A stretch of DNA of 63,379 nt, from positions 163,490 to 226,868 of the forward strand of contig JBBAUX010000001.1 of assembly GCA_040398005.1 (NCBI GenBank). The letters run 5' to 3'. Every line of letters begins with the position of its first letter. The first letter of the stretch is position 1. Positions 49,910 to 63,379 of this stretch are shown piece by piece. A program made the position numbers and the translations under genes. The stretch comes from Opitutales bacterium (lineage in GTDB: Bacteria; Verrucomicrobiota; Verrucomicrobiia; Opitutales; UBA953). The notes below the pieces were generated by a model. It was not told where the DNA came from, did no database searches, and saw only the letters and a program-made list of their open reading frames with translations.

Positions 49910-51106
49910 ATGTCCAACCTAGCCTCGCTTTCTTCTTGGGCCCGTAATGTCGCCCCTTCGCCAACGCTCGCAGTCGATGCCAAGGCCAAGGCCCTCAAGG
50001 CCGCCGGTAAAGACGTGGTCGGCTTCGGTGTCGGTGAGCCTGACTTCGATACGCCCCAATTCATTAAAGACGCCTGCGCTAAGGCGCTCGCTGAAGGCCA
50101 AACTAAGTACGCACCGACTCCTGGTATTCCCGCCTTACGTAAAGCGATTGCGGAAGACTATACCCGTCGTGGCTTTACCGGAATCGCCGATGCCAACGTC
50201 GTCGTCAGCCCAGGTGGTAAGATGTCCTGCTACCTCGCGATTCTCGCCACCATTAGCCCAGGCGACGAAGTGGTTATCCCCGCACCTTTCTGGGTGAGCT
50301 ATCCTGAGATGGTCAAACTCGCGGGTGGCGTTCCTATATTTATCAACGCTGAAGACGTCACCGGATTTAAAGTTACGCCTTCACAACTTTCCGCTGCGAT
50401 TACCCCGAAGACTCGCATGGTGGTTCTTAACAGCCCCTCCAATCCAACCGGCGCAGTTTACTCTCGTGGAGAATTAGAAGCGCTCGTTGCGATTTGTGTT
50501 AAGGCCAATGTCTGGATCATGTCCGACGAAATTTACGAAAACCTCGTCTACGATAATCAAACCACTTGTAGCCCAGCAACCTTTTCACCCGAAGCGGCTC
50601 GTCTCACGATTACCGTTTCTGGTTATGCTAAGAGTTATTCGATGACCGGTTGGCGCTTAGGTACTTTAGTAGCGAGTGATAAAGCCCTCGCCGCTGCGGT
50701 GGCTGATTTACAAAGCCAAATTTCTTCTAACGCGACGACCTTCGCTCAGTTTGGTGCGTTGGCGGTTCATCAACATCCCGACAAAGCCAAAGCCTCGCTC
50801 GCCGAAATGTGCAAAGCCTTTGACCGTCGTCGCCTCAACTTGCTCGCCGGATTAAACGCTATCCCAGGTTTAACCTGCTACCGCTCCCAAGGCGCATTCT
50901 ATCTTTTCCCAAATATTAAGTCGTTTGGTCTCACCTCAGTTCAATTCTCAGATCGCTTACTCGAAGAAGAACTCATGGCTGTTGTCCCCGGCTCCGCATT
51001 TGGTTCCGAAGGTTACATCCGTATGAGTTATGCAACTTCGGATGAGACGATTGCAAAGGGCTTAGAGCGACTCGCAAGATTCTGCGGTAAGCTGAAACAA
51101 GTATAG
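49910..51106 (+). CDS. aspC: Aspartate aminotransferase (class I/II PLP enzyme)
   Basis: [53 protein letters not shown]. Confidence 0.9.
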
Positions 51107-51181
51107 TGGGCACGTTGGCAAGGTGACACGGAGCACGTGCGTTGCACGTGAGGGGACACGGGGACAAGGTGACAGGGGGAC
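51104..51181 (+). repeat. Left arm: degenerate 8-mer array (KGRCANGK) interrupted by a palindrome
   Basis: TAGT GGGCACGT TGGCAAGG TGACACGG ag CACGTGC-GTT-GCACGTG AGG GGACACGG GGACAAGG TGACAGGG GGAC. Confidence 0.9.
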
Positions 51182-51187
51182 GTTAGA

Positions 51188-51601
51188 CTATTCATCTGTG
51201 CGATCACGATAGCTCTGCGCTCGTGCTTTACGCATATTAATCGTGCCTCCAAGTAGTCGGGCAGCTTCATCTATCTGCTTTGATAAGTTAATTACTGCTG
51301 TTGGTGAAATTAAACCAATTTCTTTGGCTATACTAAGTTGCGTCTCAAGTTCTGCTAATGAACCCCGGGCAATTTGCAGAAATCTTAACGAGTCTTTATT
51401 TGAACCTCGTTCATCACCTTCAGCTATATTAGACGGAATCGAAACTGCAGACCGAATAATTTGGTCCGCTAAACTACGATGACGATAAAATGGCGGCGTC
51501 AGTGAAAGTTTATAAACTTCTACAGCTAGTGATTTGGCTTTTTGCCAGGCAACAAGATTACGATAGGATTTAACTACACCATAAGGTTTAGAAGTATTCA
51601 T
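51188..51601 (-). CDS. Four helix bundle protein (23S rRNA-IVP / TIGR02436, Avd-like fold)
   Basis: SYRNLVAWQKA, LADQIIRSAVSIPSNIAEG, RFLQIARGSLAELETQL; visibly AT-richer than its neighbours. Confidence 0.93.
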   Translation of the reverse strand: MNTSKPYGVVKSYRNLVAWQKAKSLAVEVYKLSLTPPFYRHRSLADQIIRSAVSIPSNIAEGDERGSNKDSLRFLQIARGSLAELETQLSIAKEIGLISPTAVINLSKQIDEAARLLGGTINMRKARAQSYRDRTDE

Positions 51602-51679
51602 CGAAATTGACGATATACTTCGAAGCCATTACGTCATCCCCTTCGTTGATCAATTATACCTTAGTGATTTAGCATCAAT

Positions 51680-51720
51680 TCCCCTTGTCACCATGTCACC
51701 ATGTCACCGTGTCCCCTAGA
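51680..51720 (-). repeat. Right arm: inverted 8-mer array
   Basis: Minus strand TCTAGG GGACACGG TGACATGG TGACATGG TGACAAGG GGA. 51687-51717 is complementary to 51151-51181 at 27/31 positions. Confidence 0.9.
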
Positions 51721-51725
51721 TGGGG

Positions 51726-52334
51726 TTACGCTGGCTCTACCAAAATACACTCCATTCCGGCTGCATCAGCGGCTTCTTTACCTCTGGGGCTGTCTTCAAC
51801 GACAACGCAGTCCGACGGATCAATTCCAATGCGTGCCGCGGCGGCTAAAAATAAATCGGGGTGTGGCTTTAAACGCGTCGCATCTTCGGCCGTAATAATC
51901 GCATCGAAGAGATGCATGATGTCGATGGCCGTGAGCGAGGTATGGACGTGACTCTTGCGTCCGGCTGACGCAATCGCGGTACGGTGTCCAAGACTTTTTA
52001 CGTGATGAACGACGGCAACGACTGCTTTTCTGGGTCGAACGTCTTTTGCTAAATGGATTTCGAGATAGTCGTGTCCGTCGGCTAATAATAACGGTACATC
52101 TAAATCGACGTTATAAAGTTTTTTAAGATTCTTACAGGTATCATGGGCCGACATTCCGCCCATCGAACAAAATAAATCCCAAGGAAAATCAAACGGCTTT
52201 CCGAGTTGTTTGCTGATAATGTGCGTCCAGGTACGATGATGAATACGCATGGTTTCAGCCACGGTTCCATCGCAATCAAAAATCCAACCTCTCTTTTTTA
52301 ACAGAACAGGATCGAATGAAATCATTTCTGACAT
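51726..52334 (-). CDS. HAD family sugar-phosphatase (YqaB/beta-PGM-like)
   Basis: IFDCDGT, KPHPDLFL, VEDSPRG. Start ATG 52334 lies immediately after the ffh stop. Confidence 0.87.
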   Translation of the reverse strand: MSEMISFDPVLLKKRGWIFDCDGTVAETMRIHHRTWTHIISKQLGKPFDFPWDLFCSMGGMSAHDTCKNLKKLYNVDLDVPLLLADGHDYLEIHLAKDVRPRKAVVAVVHHVKSLGHRTAIASAGRKSHVHTSLTAIDIMHLFDAIITAEDATRLKPHPDLFLAAAARIGIDPSDCVVVEDSPRGKEAADAAGMECILVEPA

Positions 52335-52335
52335 T

Positions 52336-53697
52336 TTATCGGAAGCCTCCGCCGGGGAAGCCGCCACGACCGCCGCCCATTTGGCCCATTTTACGCATCA
52401 ACTCATGACCACGACCACCTTTCATCATTTTCATCATCTCACGCATTTGTGTAAATTGTTTAATCATCGCATTCACATCGCTGACCTGAGTGCCAGAACC
52501 CTTGGCAATGCGGGCCCGACGGGAGGCATTAAGAATGTCGGGCTTGCGACGTTCCTTCACGGTCATCGACAAAATAATCGCTTCGGTTTTACCGAGCATT
52601 TTTTCTTCGCGGGCACCGACTTGTACATTCCCCATGCCAGGCATCATTTTCATGATGTCGCCGAGCGGCCCCATTTTCTTCATCTGACCCATCTGCGCTA
52701 AGAAATCTTCTAAATCGAAGTCCGACTTCTTTAATTTCTCTACCATTCTTGCCGCTTCTTTTTGATCCACCACTTCTTGAGCTTTTTCAACGAGTGATAC
52801 CACGTCACCCATACCTAAAATACGTTGAGCGAGGCGATCAGGATGGAAGGTGTCAAAGTCTGCAGATTTTTCTCCGGTTCCAATATAGCGAATGGGCACG
52901 CCGGTCACGGACTTCATAGATAACGCAGCACCGCCGCGTGCATCGCCATCTAACTTGGTTAAAATAATTCCCGTGAGTGGGGTAGAGGTGTTAAATTGTA
53001 CAGCGACATCCACGGCTTGTTGTCCGAGTGCAGCGTCCGCGACTAGAAAGATTTCTTGAGGCTGAATCAGATCACGAATGCGACTGATTTCTGACATTAA
53101 ATCGGCGTCGATTTGTAAGCGTCCAGCGGTATCGACAATCACAATATCCGAGCCCGACGCTTCGGCATCTTTGGTTAATTGTGCCACCATAGCCGGAACA
53201 TCTTTCGCTAAACGATCCGAACGGAAATCAATCCCTTCGTTCTTCGCTAAAGTCTCGAGTTGGTCGATTGCTGCGGGACGACGTAAATCGGCCGCAATTA
53301 AACTAGGTTTTCTGACGCCTTCTTTTTTGATGAGATGTCGGGCTAACTTAGCAGCGCTCGTCGTTTTGCCTGAGCCTTGCAGTCCAACGAGTAAAATTCT
53401 TAAAGGGCGTTGAGGGTTGAGAGTTTTTTCACCTTCGCCGAGTAAGCGAGTGAGTTCGTCGGAGACGACCTTGACGGCCATCTGTCCAGGTGAGACGGCT
53501 TCAACGACTTCTTTTCCGAGACAGGCTACTTTGACTCGTTCGGTAAAATCTTGAGCGACTTTGAAATTAACATCCGCGCTGAGCAGGGCAGAATTAACTT
53601 CATTCAGAGCCGGCACGATGTTCTCAGCCGTAAGTTTGGAAAGCCCACGCAAGTCGCGCAGAGCTTTGGTCAGTTTATCGGTTAAGTTATTAAACAC
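52336..53697 (-). CDS. ffh: Signal recognition particle protein Ffh
   Basis: GTG start (VFNNLTDKL), GLQGSGKTT, DTAGR, TKLDGDARGGAALS, RILGMGD, Met-rich M domain. Confidence 0.96.
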   Translation of the reverse strand: MFNNLTDKLTKALRDLRGLSKLTAENIVPALNEVNSALLSADVNFKVAQDFTERVKVACLGKEVVEAVSPGQMAVKVVSDELTRLLGEGEKTLNPQRPLRILLVGLQGSGKTTSAAKLARHLIKKEGVRKPSLIAADLRRPAAIDQLETLAKNEGIDFRSDRLAKDVPAMVAQLTKDAEASGSDIVIVDTAGRLQIDADLMSEISRIRDLIQPQEIFLVADAALGQQAVDVAVQFNTSTPLTGIILTKLDGDARGGAALSMKSVTGVPIRYIGTGEKSADFDTFHPDRLAQRILGMGDVVSLVEKAQEVVDQKEAARMVEKLKKSDFDLEDFLAQMGQMKKMGPLGDIMKMMPGMGNVQVGAREEKMLGKTEAIILSMTVKERRKPDILNASRRARIAKGSGTQVSDVNAMIKQFTQMREMMKMMKGGRGHELMRKMGQMGGGRGGFPGGGFR

Positions 53698-53823
53698 GGA
53701 TGACTCAAAGAAAACAGGGTTGGTGTTTAGATGCAAGTAAGGAGGCGGTGTTTAATGGTTTTTTGTGCTAAAGTCGTGAGAATGTCTCTTGCACTCTGAG
53801 TTAAGTCTTACACTTTTCGGGGC

Positions 53824-63174: not shown

Positions 63175-63251
<77 letters not shown>

Positions 63252-63266: not shown

Positions 63267-63379
63267 TCTAGGGGACACGTGGGCAAGGTGACATGGGGAC
63301 AAGGGGAGATGTCTTTTAACGACTTCGTCGTTCAATTATTTAATATAGGTTTCAGACACAACCCCTTGCCAACGTGCCC
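63267..63379. repeat. Second, ORF-less copy of the 8-mer inverted-arm element (runs to window end)
   Basis: 63267-63307 matches the reverse complement of 51680-51720 at 36/41. 63364-63379 is the exact reverse complement of 51108-51123. Confidence 0.88.

What the first reader, a model, noticed from the sequence alone, without database searches (positions are those of the whole stretch)
51104..51720. Four-helix-bundle (Avd-like) gene enclosed by inverted arrays of degenerate 8-mers: candidate undescribed repeat-bounded element
Seen: a 137-aa TIGR02436/23S-IVP-type gene, AT-richer than its neighbours, sits alone between convergent aspC and HAD genes. The left flank is built of units GGGCACGT, TGGCAAGG, TGACACGG, GGACACGG, GGACAAGG, TGACAGGG. 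The right flank is the reverse complement of GGACACGG, TGACATGG, TGACATGG, TGACAAGG. 51151-51181 pairs with 51687-51717 at 27/31 positions, so a transcript or ssDNA could form a long stem with the ORF in its loop. Known: this family was first found in Leptospira 23S rRNA intervening sequences and shares its fold with the nucleic-acid-binding DGR accessory protein Avd; its function is unknown. Inference: gene plus arms form a mobile or excisable cassette, or the protein binds its own repeat RNA/DNA. No transposase, integrase or RT lies in this window.
Basis: partly seen in the sequence, partly recalled or inferred. Interest (0 to 1): 0.85.

Follow-up and report, generated by a model that had tools for sequence, protein, structure and literature searches.

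The report
Flippable repeat-armed four-helix-bundle gene cassette
A small gene of unknown function, boxed in by mirror-image runs of an 8-base repeat, is gained, lost and flipped as one unit at a fixed spot in related freshwater bacteria, which ties an enigmatic protein family to the unexplained short repeats scattered through bacterial genomes.

Summary
The 137-aa TIGR02436/PF05635 (S23p/Avd-fold) gene and its two inverted octamer arms form one cassette. At this aspC–HAD junction in 71 congeneric genomes the gene faces HAD in 22, is flipped in 3, has collapsed to a fused-arm palindrome in 5, is otherwise absent in 38, and 3 contigs end. The flip breakpoints lie inside the arms, and two other cassette families also occur in both orientations at their own fixed sites. 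79 of 85 family genes in the genus have such arms, the repeat unit tracks the protein clade, and dN/dS is 0.03–0.11. Against a simple cassette story: the octamer array is a genome-wide repeat (66 sites, one gene), persists in genomes lacking the gene, and is tied to GTAG REPs. No mobilising enzyme, excised form or RNA was shown. Best reading: an IVS-like selfish mini-cassette outside rRNA whose pentameric protein probably binds its own arms. This scan found the gene-plus-arms layout many times before on other DNA; I found it in no paper outside rRNA IVSs.

The parts
49910..51106 (+). aspC-like class I/II aminotransferase; left host flank, its TAG stop abuts the first repeat unit
51107..51130 (+). 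Outer left array, 3 octamer units; stays with aspC when the cassette is flipped (G065, G104, G009); missing in a strain variant seen in run X7
51131..51152 (+). 22-nt hairpin insert inside the left array; identical at the same place in G065, where the gene points the other way; similar inserts interrupt other arrays in the genome
51153..51181 (+). Inner left arm (3 units + G tail); its complement is the C-rich 3' arm of the gene's strand
51188..51601 (-). Four-helix-bundle gene, TIGR02436/PF05635, S23p/Avd fold, pI 9.9, under purifying selection
51610..51637 (-). Putative leaderless promoter (-35 at 51632-51637, -10 at 51610-51615, 8 nt before ATG); inferred from post hoc patterns, not shown
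   Evidence: not found by the consensus scan
51681..51717 (-). Right arm, 4 octamer units + G tail, starting 10 nt after the HAD stop; G-rich 5' arm of the gene's strand
51726..52367 (-). HAD-family phosphatase; right host flank
53700..53823 (.). ffh / metallo-beta-lactamase-fold divergent gap: clean empty site of a second four-helix-bundle cassette family (heptamer arms) that fills it in congeners
63272..63379 (.). Gene-less inward-facing pair of the same octamer arrays just after tRNA-Pro (63175-63251); second arm cut by the window end / assembly gap

Best explanation
A selfish mini-cassette of the same build as the ORF-bearing 23S rRNA intervening sequences, but lodged between protein genes: G-rich tandem arm - short leader (probably with its own leaderless promoter) - four-helix-bundle gene - mirror-image arm. 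SHOWN: each protein clade has its own 7-10-nt unit and, in this genus, mostly one fixed site; at that site the cassette is present, absent, collapsed to a fused-arm palindrome or flipped, with the flip breakpoints inside the arms; the protein is under strong purifying selection; gene-less arms and arm pairs are dispersed between genes. INFERRED: the basic S23p/Avd-type pentamer has no evident catalytic partner and binds its own arm units (about 4 units plus a G tail per arm, roughly one per protomer) on single-stranded DNA or RNA and holds the fold-back; host replication or recombination at the fold-back then gives the inversions and the deletions through the shared CACGTG hexamer; filled and empty alleles move between congeners by homologous recombination of the flanks; the same activity seeds the gene-less arrays. 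The G-rich-after-stop polarity and arm pairing probably keep insertions harmless to host transcripts. About 85% that it is a unit of gain, loss and inversion; about 60% that the protein acts on its own repeats; about 30% for this particular route.
For: Junction survey: 22 HAD-facing, 3 flipped, 5 fused-arm footprints, 38 otherwise without the gene, 3 open, of 71; presence is scattered on the host tree (at least 12 changes forced by starred branches). G065 (flipped) has the sister gene of G000/G060 (97/92) and keeps the same hairpin-bearing outer arm at aspC while leader, gene and trailer are reversed; at least 2 switches forced, one origin of the flipped state rejected (p-AU 0.004); longest exact arm-to-arm match 15-18 nt in the two flipped genomes with both flanks, which makes misassembly unlikely. 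Both orientations also at two other family sites (3:2 and 6:1), never at two divergent-promoter sites (6:0, 10:0). 79 of 85 loci have inverted arms against 7 of 1270 genome genes; 17 of 35 loci outside the genus pass the same score. Unit tracks clade: 21 changes against 61 shuffled. dN/dS 0.027-0.11 in 17 of 17 pairs. Fold matches 2GSC, 2RLD and Avd; pI above 8 in 83 of 90; Avd's five protomers bind an RNA stem-loop with flipped-out bases (10.1101/2023.10.23.563531, passages). Coxiella IVS has a 28-bp terminal stem and GACAGAT heptamers (PMC4990558, passages), a rotation of the unit of family F here. Arrays are more numerous in genomes with this gene clade (median 25 against 12).
Against: Arrays are common without the gene: 91 of 96 genomes have them, 27 of 96 have the gene clade, and G066 (95% complete, 52 matches) and G053 (94%, 27) have no PF05635 gene at all. 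15 of 16 GTAG REPs lie within 60 nt of an array, so another system may move them. No G-U bias towards either strand in arm mismatches (88 against 91); arms within a genome are hardly more alike than across genomes (32.9 against 32.4 of 35). No inversion or excision joint in four laid runs (contigs drop rare forms). Inversion and deletion between inverted repeats need no cassette-encoded protein (established knowledge). The scatter on the host tree may reflect allele exchange rather than independent events. Only three loci of this clade sit at other sites, so new insertions are rare.
Confidence: 0.6

Rival explanations
1. The arrays are a REP/BIME-like or host 3'-end repeat family spread by another system (for example a GTAG-type RAYT); the four-helix-bundle gene is passive cargo or a host-useful RNA-binding protein that ends up between two arrays, and the flips are passive.
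For: 66 sites for one gene, all intergenic, 24 of 66 starting within 30 nt of a same-strand stop (null mean 5.2); convergent genes each followed by an array would give an inward pair by themselves; 15 of 16 GTAG REPs adjoin arrays; one inward pair encloses a DUF3800 gene instead; arrays persist without the gene.
Against: Arms stay with the gene when other cargo is inserted between aspC and the cassette (G011, G024, G041, G069, G072). About 16 different units each go with a protein clade, several within one genome. Families B and E carry arms in divergent promoter gaps, not after stops. 0 of 30 Y1-transposase loci carry this REP; 23 carry another REP type, though the search at E 1e-5 may miss RAYTs.
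Confidence: 0.2
2. It works at the RNA level like an rRNA IVS: read-through transcripts fold the arms into a stem that RNase III removes, and the Avd-like protein chaperones this RNA for a reverse transcriptase in trans (retro-homing).
For: Same architecture as the RNase III-excised Coxiella IVS; stem forms in the predicted fold; Avd is an RT partner; degenerate tandem units resemble template slippage (inference).
Against: No RVT_1 match in this 94%-complete genome; NF033474 Avd model not passed (24 of 80 bits); no strand-specific G-U bias; the left and right arms here have 4 mismatches in 31; a leaderless promoter would leave the 5' arm out of the gene's own mRNA (weak).
Confidence: 0.15
3. 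A programmed invertible switch (phase variation) that tunes the gene or its neighbours.
For: Both orientations exist at three sites; the inverting segment carries a putative promoter.
Against: No invertase in the window; the only two tyrosine recombinases lie on another contig; one orientation only in the runs laid; 19 genomes of the large host clade all share one orientation; both neighbours end at the site, so there is no downstream gene to switch.
Confidence: 0.05

Closest known systems
ORF-bearing 23S rRNA intervening sequences with S23p (Coxiella burnetii helix-45 IVS; Leptospira) - PMC4990558, passages read
   Same: Same protein family; ORF in the loop of a ~30-bp terminal stem; tandem heptamers in the 5' arm (GACAGAT, a rotation of family F's unit in this genus).
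   Different: Not in rRNA (no Rfam match in 20 of 20 loci scanned); ORF under purifying selection here whereas the Coxiella ORF is reported as decaying; flips at its site; many gene-less arms dispersed; RNase III excision untested.
G-rich heptamer repeats of Xanthomonas (GGGAATC) and Nostoc - PMC4692102, abstract and passages; TAACTGA repeats of Beggiatoaceae - PMC4679880, abstract and passages
   Same: Intergenic, four units most common (50 of 84), G-rich strand just after stop codons, inward-facing pairs.
   Different: Octamer unit with short G tracts; neither paper links the repeats to a gene family ('S23' occurs 0 times in both main texts); here the arrays are the arms of a four-helix-bundle cassette.
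DGR accessory protein Avd (PDB 4DWL, 8UB7; 10.1101/2023.10.23.563531, passages)
   Same: Four-helix-bundle fold (TM 0.71-0.72 by query), basic surface charge.
   Different: Below the Avd family cut-off; no RT or template/variable repeat found.
REP/RAYT and REPIN systems (PMC3733652, passages)
   Same: Short intergenic repeats, often in inverted doublets; a GTAG REP family is physically tied to the arrays.
   Different: The arms are tandem octamers, not GTAG palindromes; the enclosed gene is not a Y1 transposase; the genome's RAYT has different REPs.
Cyanobacterial STRR arrays and the small dispersed repeats that insert into them (Elhai et al. 2008; recalled, paper not held)
   Same: Short hairpin modules of about 22 nt interrupt the tandem arrays.
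   Different: Different phylum and unit; comparison rests on memory only.

Membership tests
TIGR02436 / PF05635 four-helix-bundle (S23p) proteins | Score above curated HMM cut-offs | tested here: met
   116 vs 24 bits; 118 vs 33.8 bits
TIGR02436 / PF05635 four-helix-bundle (S23p) proteins | Four-helix bundle like XCC0516 / BT_0352 | tested here: met
   Model pLDDT 91.6; Foldseek 2GSC E 5e-7, 2RLD E 3e-4; phmmer 2GSC E 1.8e-17
TIGR02436 / PF05635 four-helix-bundle (S23p) proteins | Homopentamer | not tested
   Inferred from 2GSC (5 chains; described as homopentamer)
ORF-bearing rRNA intervening sequence | Located inside an rRNA gene | tested here: not met
   Between aspC and HAD; no Rfam match in 20 loci
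ORF-bearing rRNA intervening sequence | Terminal inverted repeats closing a stem around an S23p ORF | tested here: met
ORF-bearing rRNA intervening sequence | Excised from the transcript by RNase III | not testable with these tools
Diversity-generating retroelement (Avd) | Avd family score above cut-off | tested here: not met
   NF033474 24.2 vs 80 bits
Diversity-generating retroelement (Avd) | Reverse transcriptase in the cassette or genome | tested here: not met
   PF00078: no match in G000, 94% complete; none in the window
REP/RAYT system | Y1 (HUH) transposase flanked by the repeat | tested here: not met
   The genome's one Y1 gene has another REP type; 0 of 30 Y1 loci carry the array-linked REP, 5 have a stray octamer match
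Insertion sequence / MITE | Transposase encoded between the inverted repeats | tested here: not met
   Only PF05635
Insertion sequence / MITE | Target-site duplication | tested here: inconclusive
   Empty footprints join the two outer units at a shared CACGTG; this fits a duplication or a deletion through microhomology; filled alleles in both deep host clades favour deletion
G-rich long simple sequence repeats (Xanthomonas/Nostoc type) | Four-unit mode, intergenic, G strand after stop codons, inward pairs | tested here: met
   50 of 84 arrays have 4 units; 0 of 66 sites inside genes; 24 vs 3 of 66; 10 gene-less inward pairs
G-rich long simple sequence repeats (Xanthomonas/Nostoc type) | G-quadruplex formation | not testable with these tools
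   Needs spectroscopy
Invertase-driven phase-variable inverton | Dedicated recombinase nearby and both orientations within one population | tested here: inconclusive
   No recombinase in the window; one orientation in contigs of four runs, which drop rare variants; both orientations only across species

The most novel reading that the evidence does not exclude
S23p/TIGR02436 proteins are the sequence-specific engine of a class of mobile element with no transposase, integrase or RT of its own: each pentamer recognises its cognate 7-8-nt unit, drives site-specific gain and inversion of its cassette, and seeds the gene-less tandem arrays, so that rRNA IVSs, the excess of 7-8-nt repeats between bacterial genes and DGR Avd share one origin.
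Probability: 0.3. Interest if true: 0.9.

Novelty: new variant of a known kind. Interest (0 to 1): 0.68.

Why it matters
PF05635 is a large family with solved structures and no known function, and the dispersed G-rich 7-8-nt arrays of many bacteria have no known source. This locus gives cognate protein-repeat pairs, filled, empty, collapsed and flipped alleles of one site, and about 16 unit-protein pairs within one genus. That makes both questions directly testable by cross-wise binding and reporter assays. If the protein does the moving, it is a kind of mobile element without a recognised catalytic enzyme.

Tried and rejected
RAYT as the partner: the genome's Y1 gene and 23 of 30 Y1 loci in the genus carry a different REP; a more distant GTAG-type RAYT is not excluded. 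GxxExxY (PF13366) and RT (PF00078): no match in G000. G-U wobble asymmetry as a sign of RNA-level selection: none (88 vs 91). Concerted evolution of the two arms within a genome: weak (32.9 vs 32.4; 29.2 vs 26.9 of 35 in the small clade). Rfam: no match in 20 loci. Consensus promoter/terminator scan: 2 promoter-like sites against 1.1 by chance, no terminator. Misassembly as the cause of the flipped alleles: unlikely, though G009's contig ends inside the gene. Elhai et al. 2008 could not be read. The Flavobacterium paper and the CPR paper mention the family without arms. The ffh-MBL survey stopped after 14 of 30 loci. Supplements of the papers were not read and might list repeat-adjacent genes.

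Full report
1. Observation. The region reads aspC (49910-51106, +), a repeat array, a 137-aa ORF (51188-51601, -), a second array, and a HAD phosphatase (51726-52367, -). The ORF passes TIGR02436 and PF05635 and fails the Avd model NF033474. Its GC is 0.403, lower than 99.5% of 1206 genes. The arms 51151-51181 and 51687-51717 pair at 27 of 31 positions. The left flank is 3 units, a 22-nt hairpin, then 3 units; the right flank is 4 units. Chance gives 0.01 two-unit matches in the window against 10 seen. One contig of run X1 (possibly the source) spans the stretch without a difference, and a contig of X2 (another study) spans 50998-52500 with one. The nearest named relatives of the protein are from Opitutales/Opitutia MAGs.

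2. The arrays are a genome-wide family. G000 (1.44 Mb, 94% complete) has one PF05635 gene but 84 arrays at 66 sites, none inside a gene by my own hexamer-model gene calls, against 0-2 in shuffled genomes. 50 of 84 have four units. The G-rich strand starts within 30 nt of a same-strand stop at 24 of 66 sites, the C-rich strand at 3, null mean 5.2. Of 14 inward-facing pairs, 10 are gene-less with 15-216 nt between them, one holds this gene, one a DUF3800 gene, and two are nested cases. 15 of 16 GTAG-type REPs lie within 60 nt of an array. Three-unit arrays occur in 91 of 96 genomes of the genus; this gene clade in 27 of 96 plus a cut copy in G009. Median array counts are 25 with and 12 without the gene (p 5e-5 ignoring kinship, 0.03 among 35 near-complete genomes), but G066 and G053 have 52 and 27 matches and no PF05635 gene.

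3. The site is polymorphic. I recovered the aspC 3' end in 71 genomes of the 96 searched. The gene faces HAD's direction in 22, the opposite way in 3 (G065 and G104 with both flanks on one contig; G009 cut inside the gene), and 3 contigs end too early. Five have a collapsed footprint in which the two outer units are fused into a short palindrome around a shared CACGTG (G054, G079, G082 minimal; G004, G006 slightly longer). The other 38 carry REPs, terminators, single arm stubs or other cargo (HigA/HigBA-like genes, a 6-kb metal-uptake block). On a host tree of aspC plus HAD (70 rows; G013 dropped for short sequence) presence is no more clustered than shuffles, with at least 12 changes forced; recurring empty allele types suggest that exchange between congeners contributes. 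Where other cargo lies between aspC and the gene, the arm stays with the gene.

4. It flips between its arms. G065's gene is sister to those of G000 and G060. At aspC, G065 and G000 share the outer three-unit block and the identical 22-nt hairpin, while leader, gene and trailer (76% identical over 507 nt) are reversed, so the breakpoints are inside the inner arrays. At least two switches are forced; one origin of the flipped state is rejected (p-AU 0.004), one origin of the other state is not (0.079). Exact arm-to-arm matches are 18 and 15 nt in G065 and G104, short for an assembly artefact. Mapping 90 loci onto G000 genes shows both orientations at this site (18:2), at a second convergent site (3:2, the two being one protein sequence) and at a tandem site (6:1, where the odd one is another protein lineage nested in the old arm), but not at two divergent-promoter sites (6:0, 10:0). 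G000 holds clean empty versions of six other families' sites, one of them in this window. G104/G009's gene is closest to a copy at another locus (G106), so those two may be re-insertions rather than flips.

5. The family rule. 80 of 95 other genomes have PF05635. I fetched 90 of about 245 matches (30 best-scoring, 60 picked by hand); 5 had short flanks. 79 of 85 have an inverted-repeat score of 15 or more, 5 a direct one; 7 of 1270 G000 genes reach it. The 5' arm is G-rich in 76 of 79. About 16 unit types track protein clades (21 changes against 61 shuffled; labels were my regexes, set after seeing the arms, with three mislabelled rows and four unlabelled). Outside the genus 17 of 35 chosen loci pass the same score, in Verrucomicrobiota, Bacillota, Acidobacteriota, Nitrospirota and deltaproteobacteria. 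dN/dS is 0.027-0.11 in 17 of 17 pairs. The model is a four-helix bundle matching XCC0516, BT_0352 and Avd; pI exceeds 8 in 83 of 90. Leaders lack Shine-Dalgarno motifs (1 of 50) and show -35-like (39 of 50) and -10-like (30 of 50) patterns at leaderless spacing against shuffled means of 8 and 7; the patterns were chosen after inspection, so this is a hint.

6. How it most likely works. Shown: a unit of gain, loss, collapse and inversion with clade-specific arms and a selected protein. Inferred: the protein is a basic pentamer like Avd, whose five protomers grip an RNA stem-loop (passages); with about four units plus a G tail per arm it plausibly binds its own arms and stabilises the fold-back, after which host replication or recombination inverts or deletes the loop, and flank recombination spreads alleles. 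No catalytic partner was found: no RT or GxxExxY in the genome, a RAYT with other REPs, two tyrosine recombinases elsewhere. Results against this reading: arrays without the gene, their tie to GTAG REPs, no G-U strand bias (88 vs 91), little within-genome arm homogenisation, and no alternative joints in four runs.

7. Comparison with what is known. The closest described element is the Coxiella 23S IVS: S23p ORF, 28-bp terminal stem, GACAGAT heptamers, RNase III excision (PMC4990558, passages). Family F in this genus uses a rotation of that heptamer but lies between protein genes. The dispersed arrays match the Xanthomonas/Nostoc G-rich heptamers in unit number, polarity and pairing (PMC4692102, abstract and passages) and resemble the Beggiatoaceae repeats (PMC4679880, abstract and passages); neither main text mentions S23. 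It is a member of PF05635, works like an IVS cassette in build, and is not an rRNA IVS, DGR, IS or RAYT system by the tests listed. Searches found no paper describing the arm-gene-arm unit outside rRNA; the library lacks most subscription journals and I read no supplements. The STRR/SDR parallel is recalled, not read.

8. Earlier scan notes. The layout was noted many times on other genomes; these are unchecked notes and not counted as support. A look-up for inversion at one site returned no finding with all the words. What this locus adds is the allele series at a fixed site, including flips with mapped breakpoints.

9. Verdict. Real feature; new variant of a known kind (IVS-type S23p cassette outside rRNA, invertible, with dispersed gene-less arms). 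Interest 0.68. Most novel reading (the protein itself drives mobility and seeds the repeats): probability 0.3, interest 0.9.

Noticed in passing
window 53700-53823; L065, L066, L068, L197, L200: The ffh / MBL-hydrolase divergent gap is empty here, holds a heptamer-armed four-helix-bundle cassette in several congeners, and a gene-less inverted array of yet another heptamer in G111 and G068.
   Followed up: partly
window 63272-63379: Gene-less inward pair of the same octamer arrays directly after tRNA-Pro; in G106 a cassette of this clade follows the same photolyase-related gene.
   Followed up: partly
L141 (G101) aspC-HAD junction: A gene-less inverted pair built from a different unit occupies the same junction, with a small hairpin inside one arm; the junction is a hotspot for several repeat families.
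   Followed up: no
L071 (G092): A cassette whose two arms are in direct, not inverted, orientation while its close relative in G100 (L069) has inverted arms.
   Followed up: no
L126 (G077): A different protein lineage with its own repeat sits nested inside the outer arm of family F at family F's site, in the opposite orientation.
   Followed up: partly
G000 genome, e.g. C1:35716, C5:121212, C6:51167: A GTAG-type REP family (16 copies) almost always sits 6-20 nt inside an octamer array; no matching RAYT was found in 30 Y1 loci.
   Followed up: partly
L223 (G000:C6:1218-2090): RAYT-like Y1 transposase flanked by doubled inverted REPs of a GGGGTCAGAC type, conserved in the genus.
   Followed up: partly
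L203 (G000:C1:35674-36669): An inward pair of the octamer arrays plus a REP encloses an atypical-composition DUF3800 gene, a possible second cargo.
   Followed up: no
L211 (G000:C8:1-20000): Dense cluster of arrays, all on one strand, around a rhodopsin-carotenoid operon, Fic and YefM-YoeB genes.
   Followed up: no
L033, L036, L037, L016 (aspC-HAD junction of congeners): HigA or HigBA-like genes and a 6-kb metal-uptake block are inserted at the same junction in several genomes (names from my reading of the translations).
   Followed up: no
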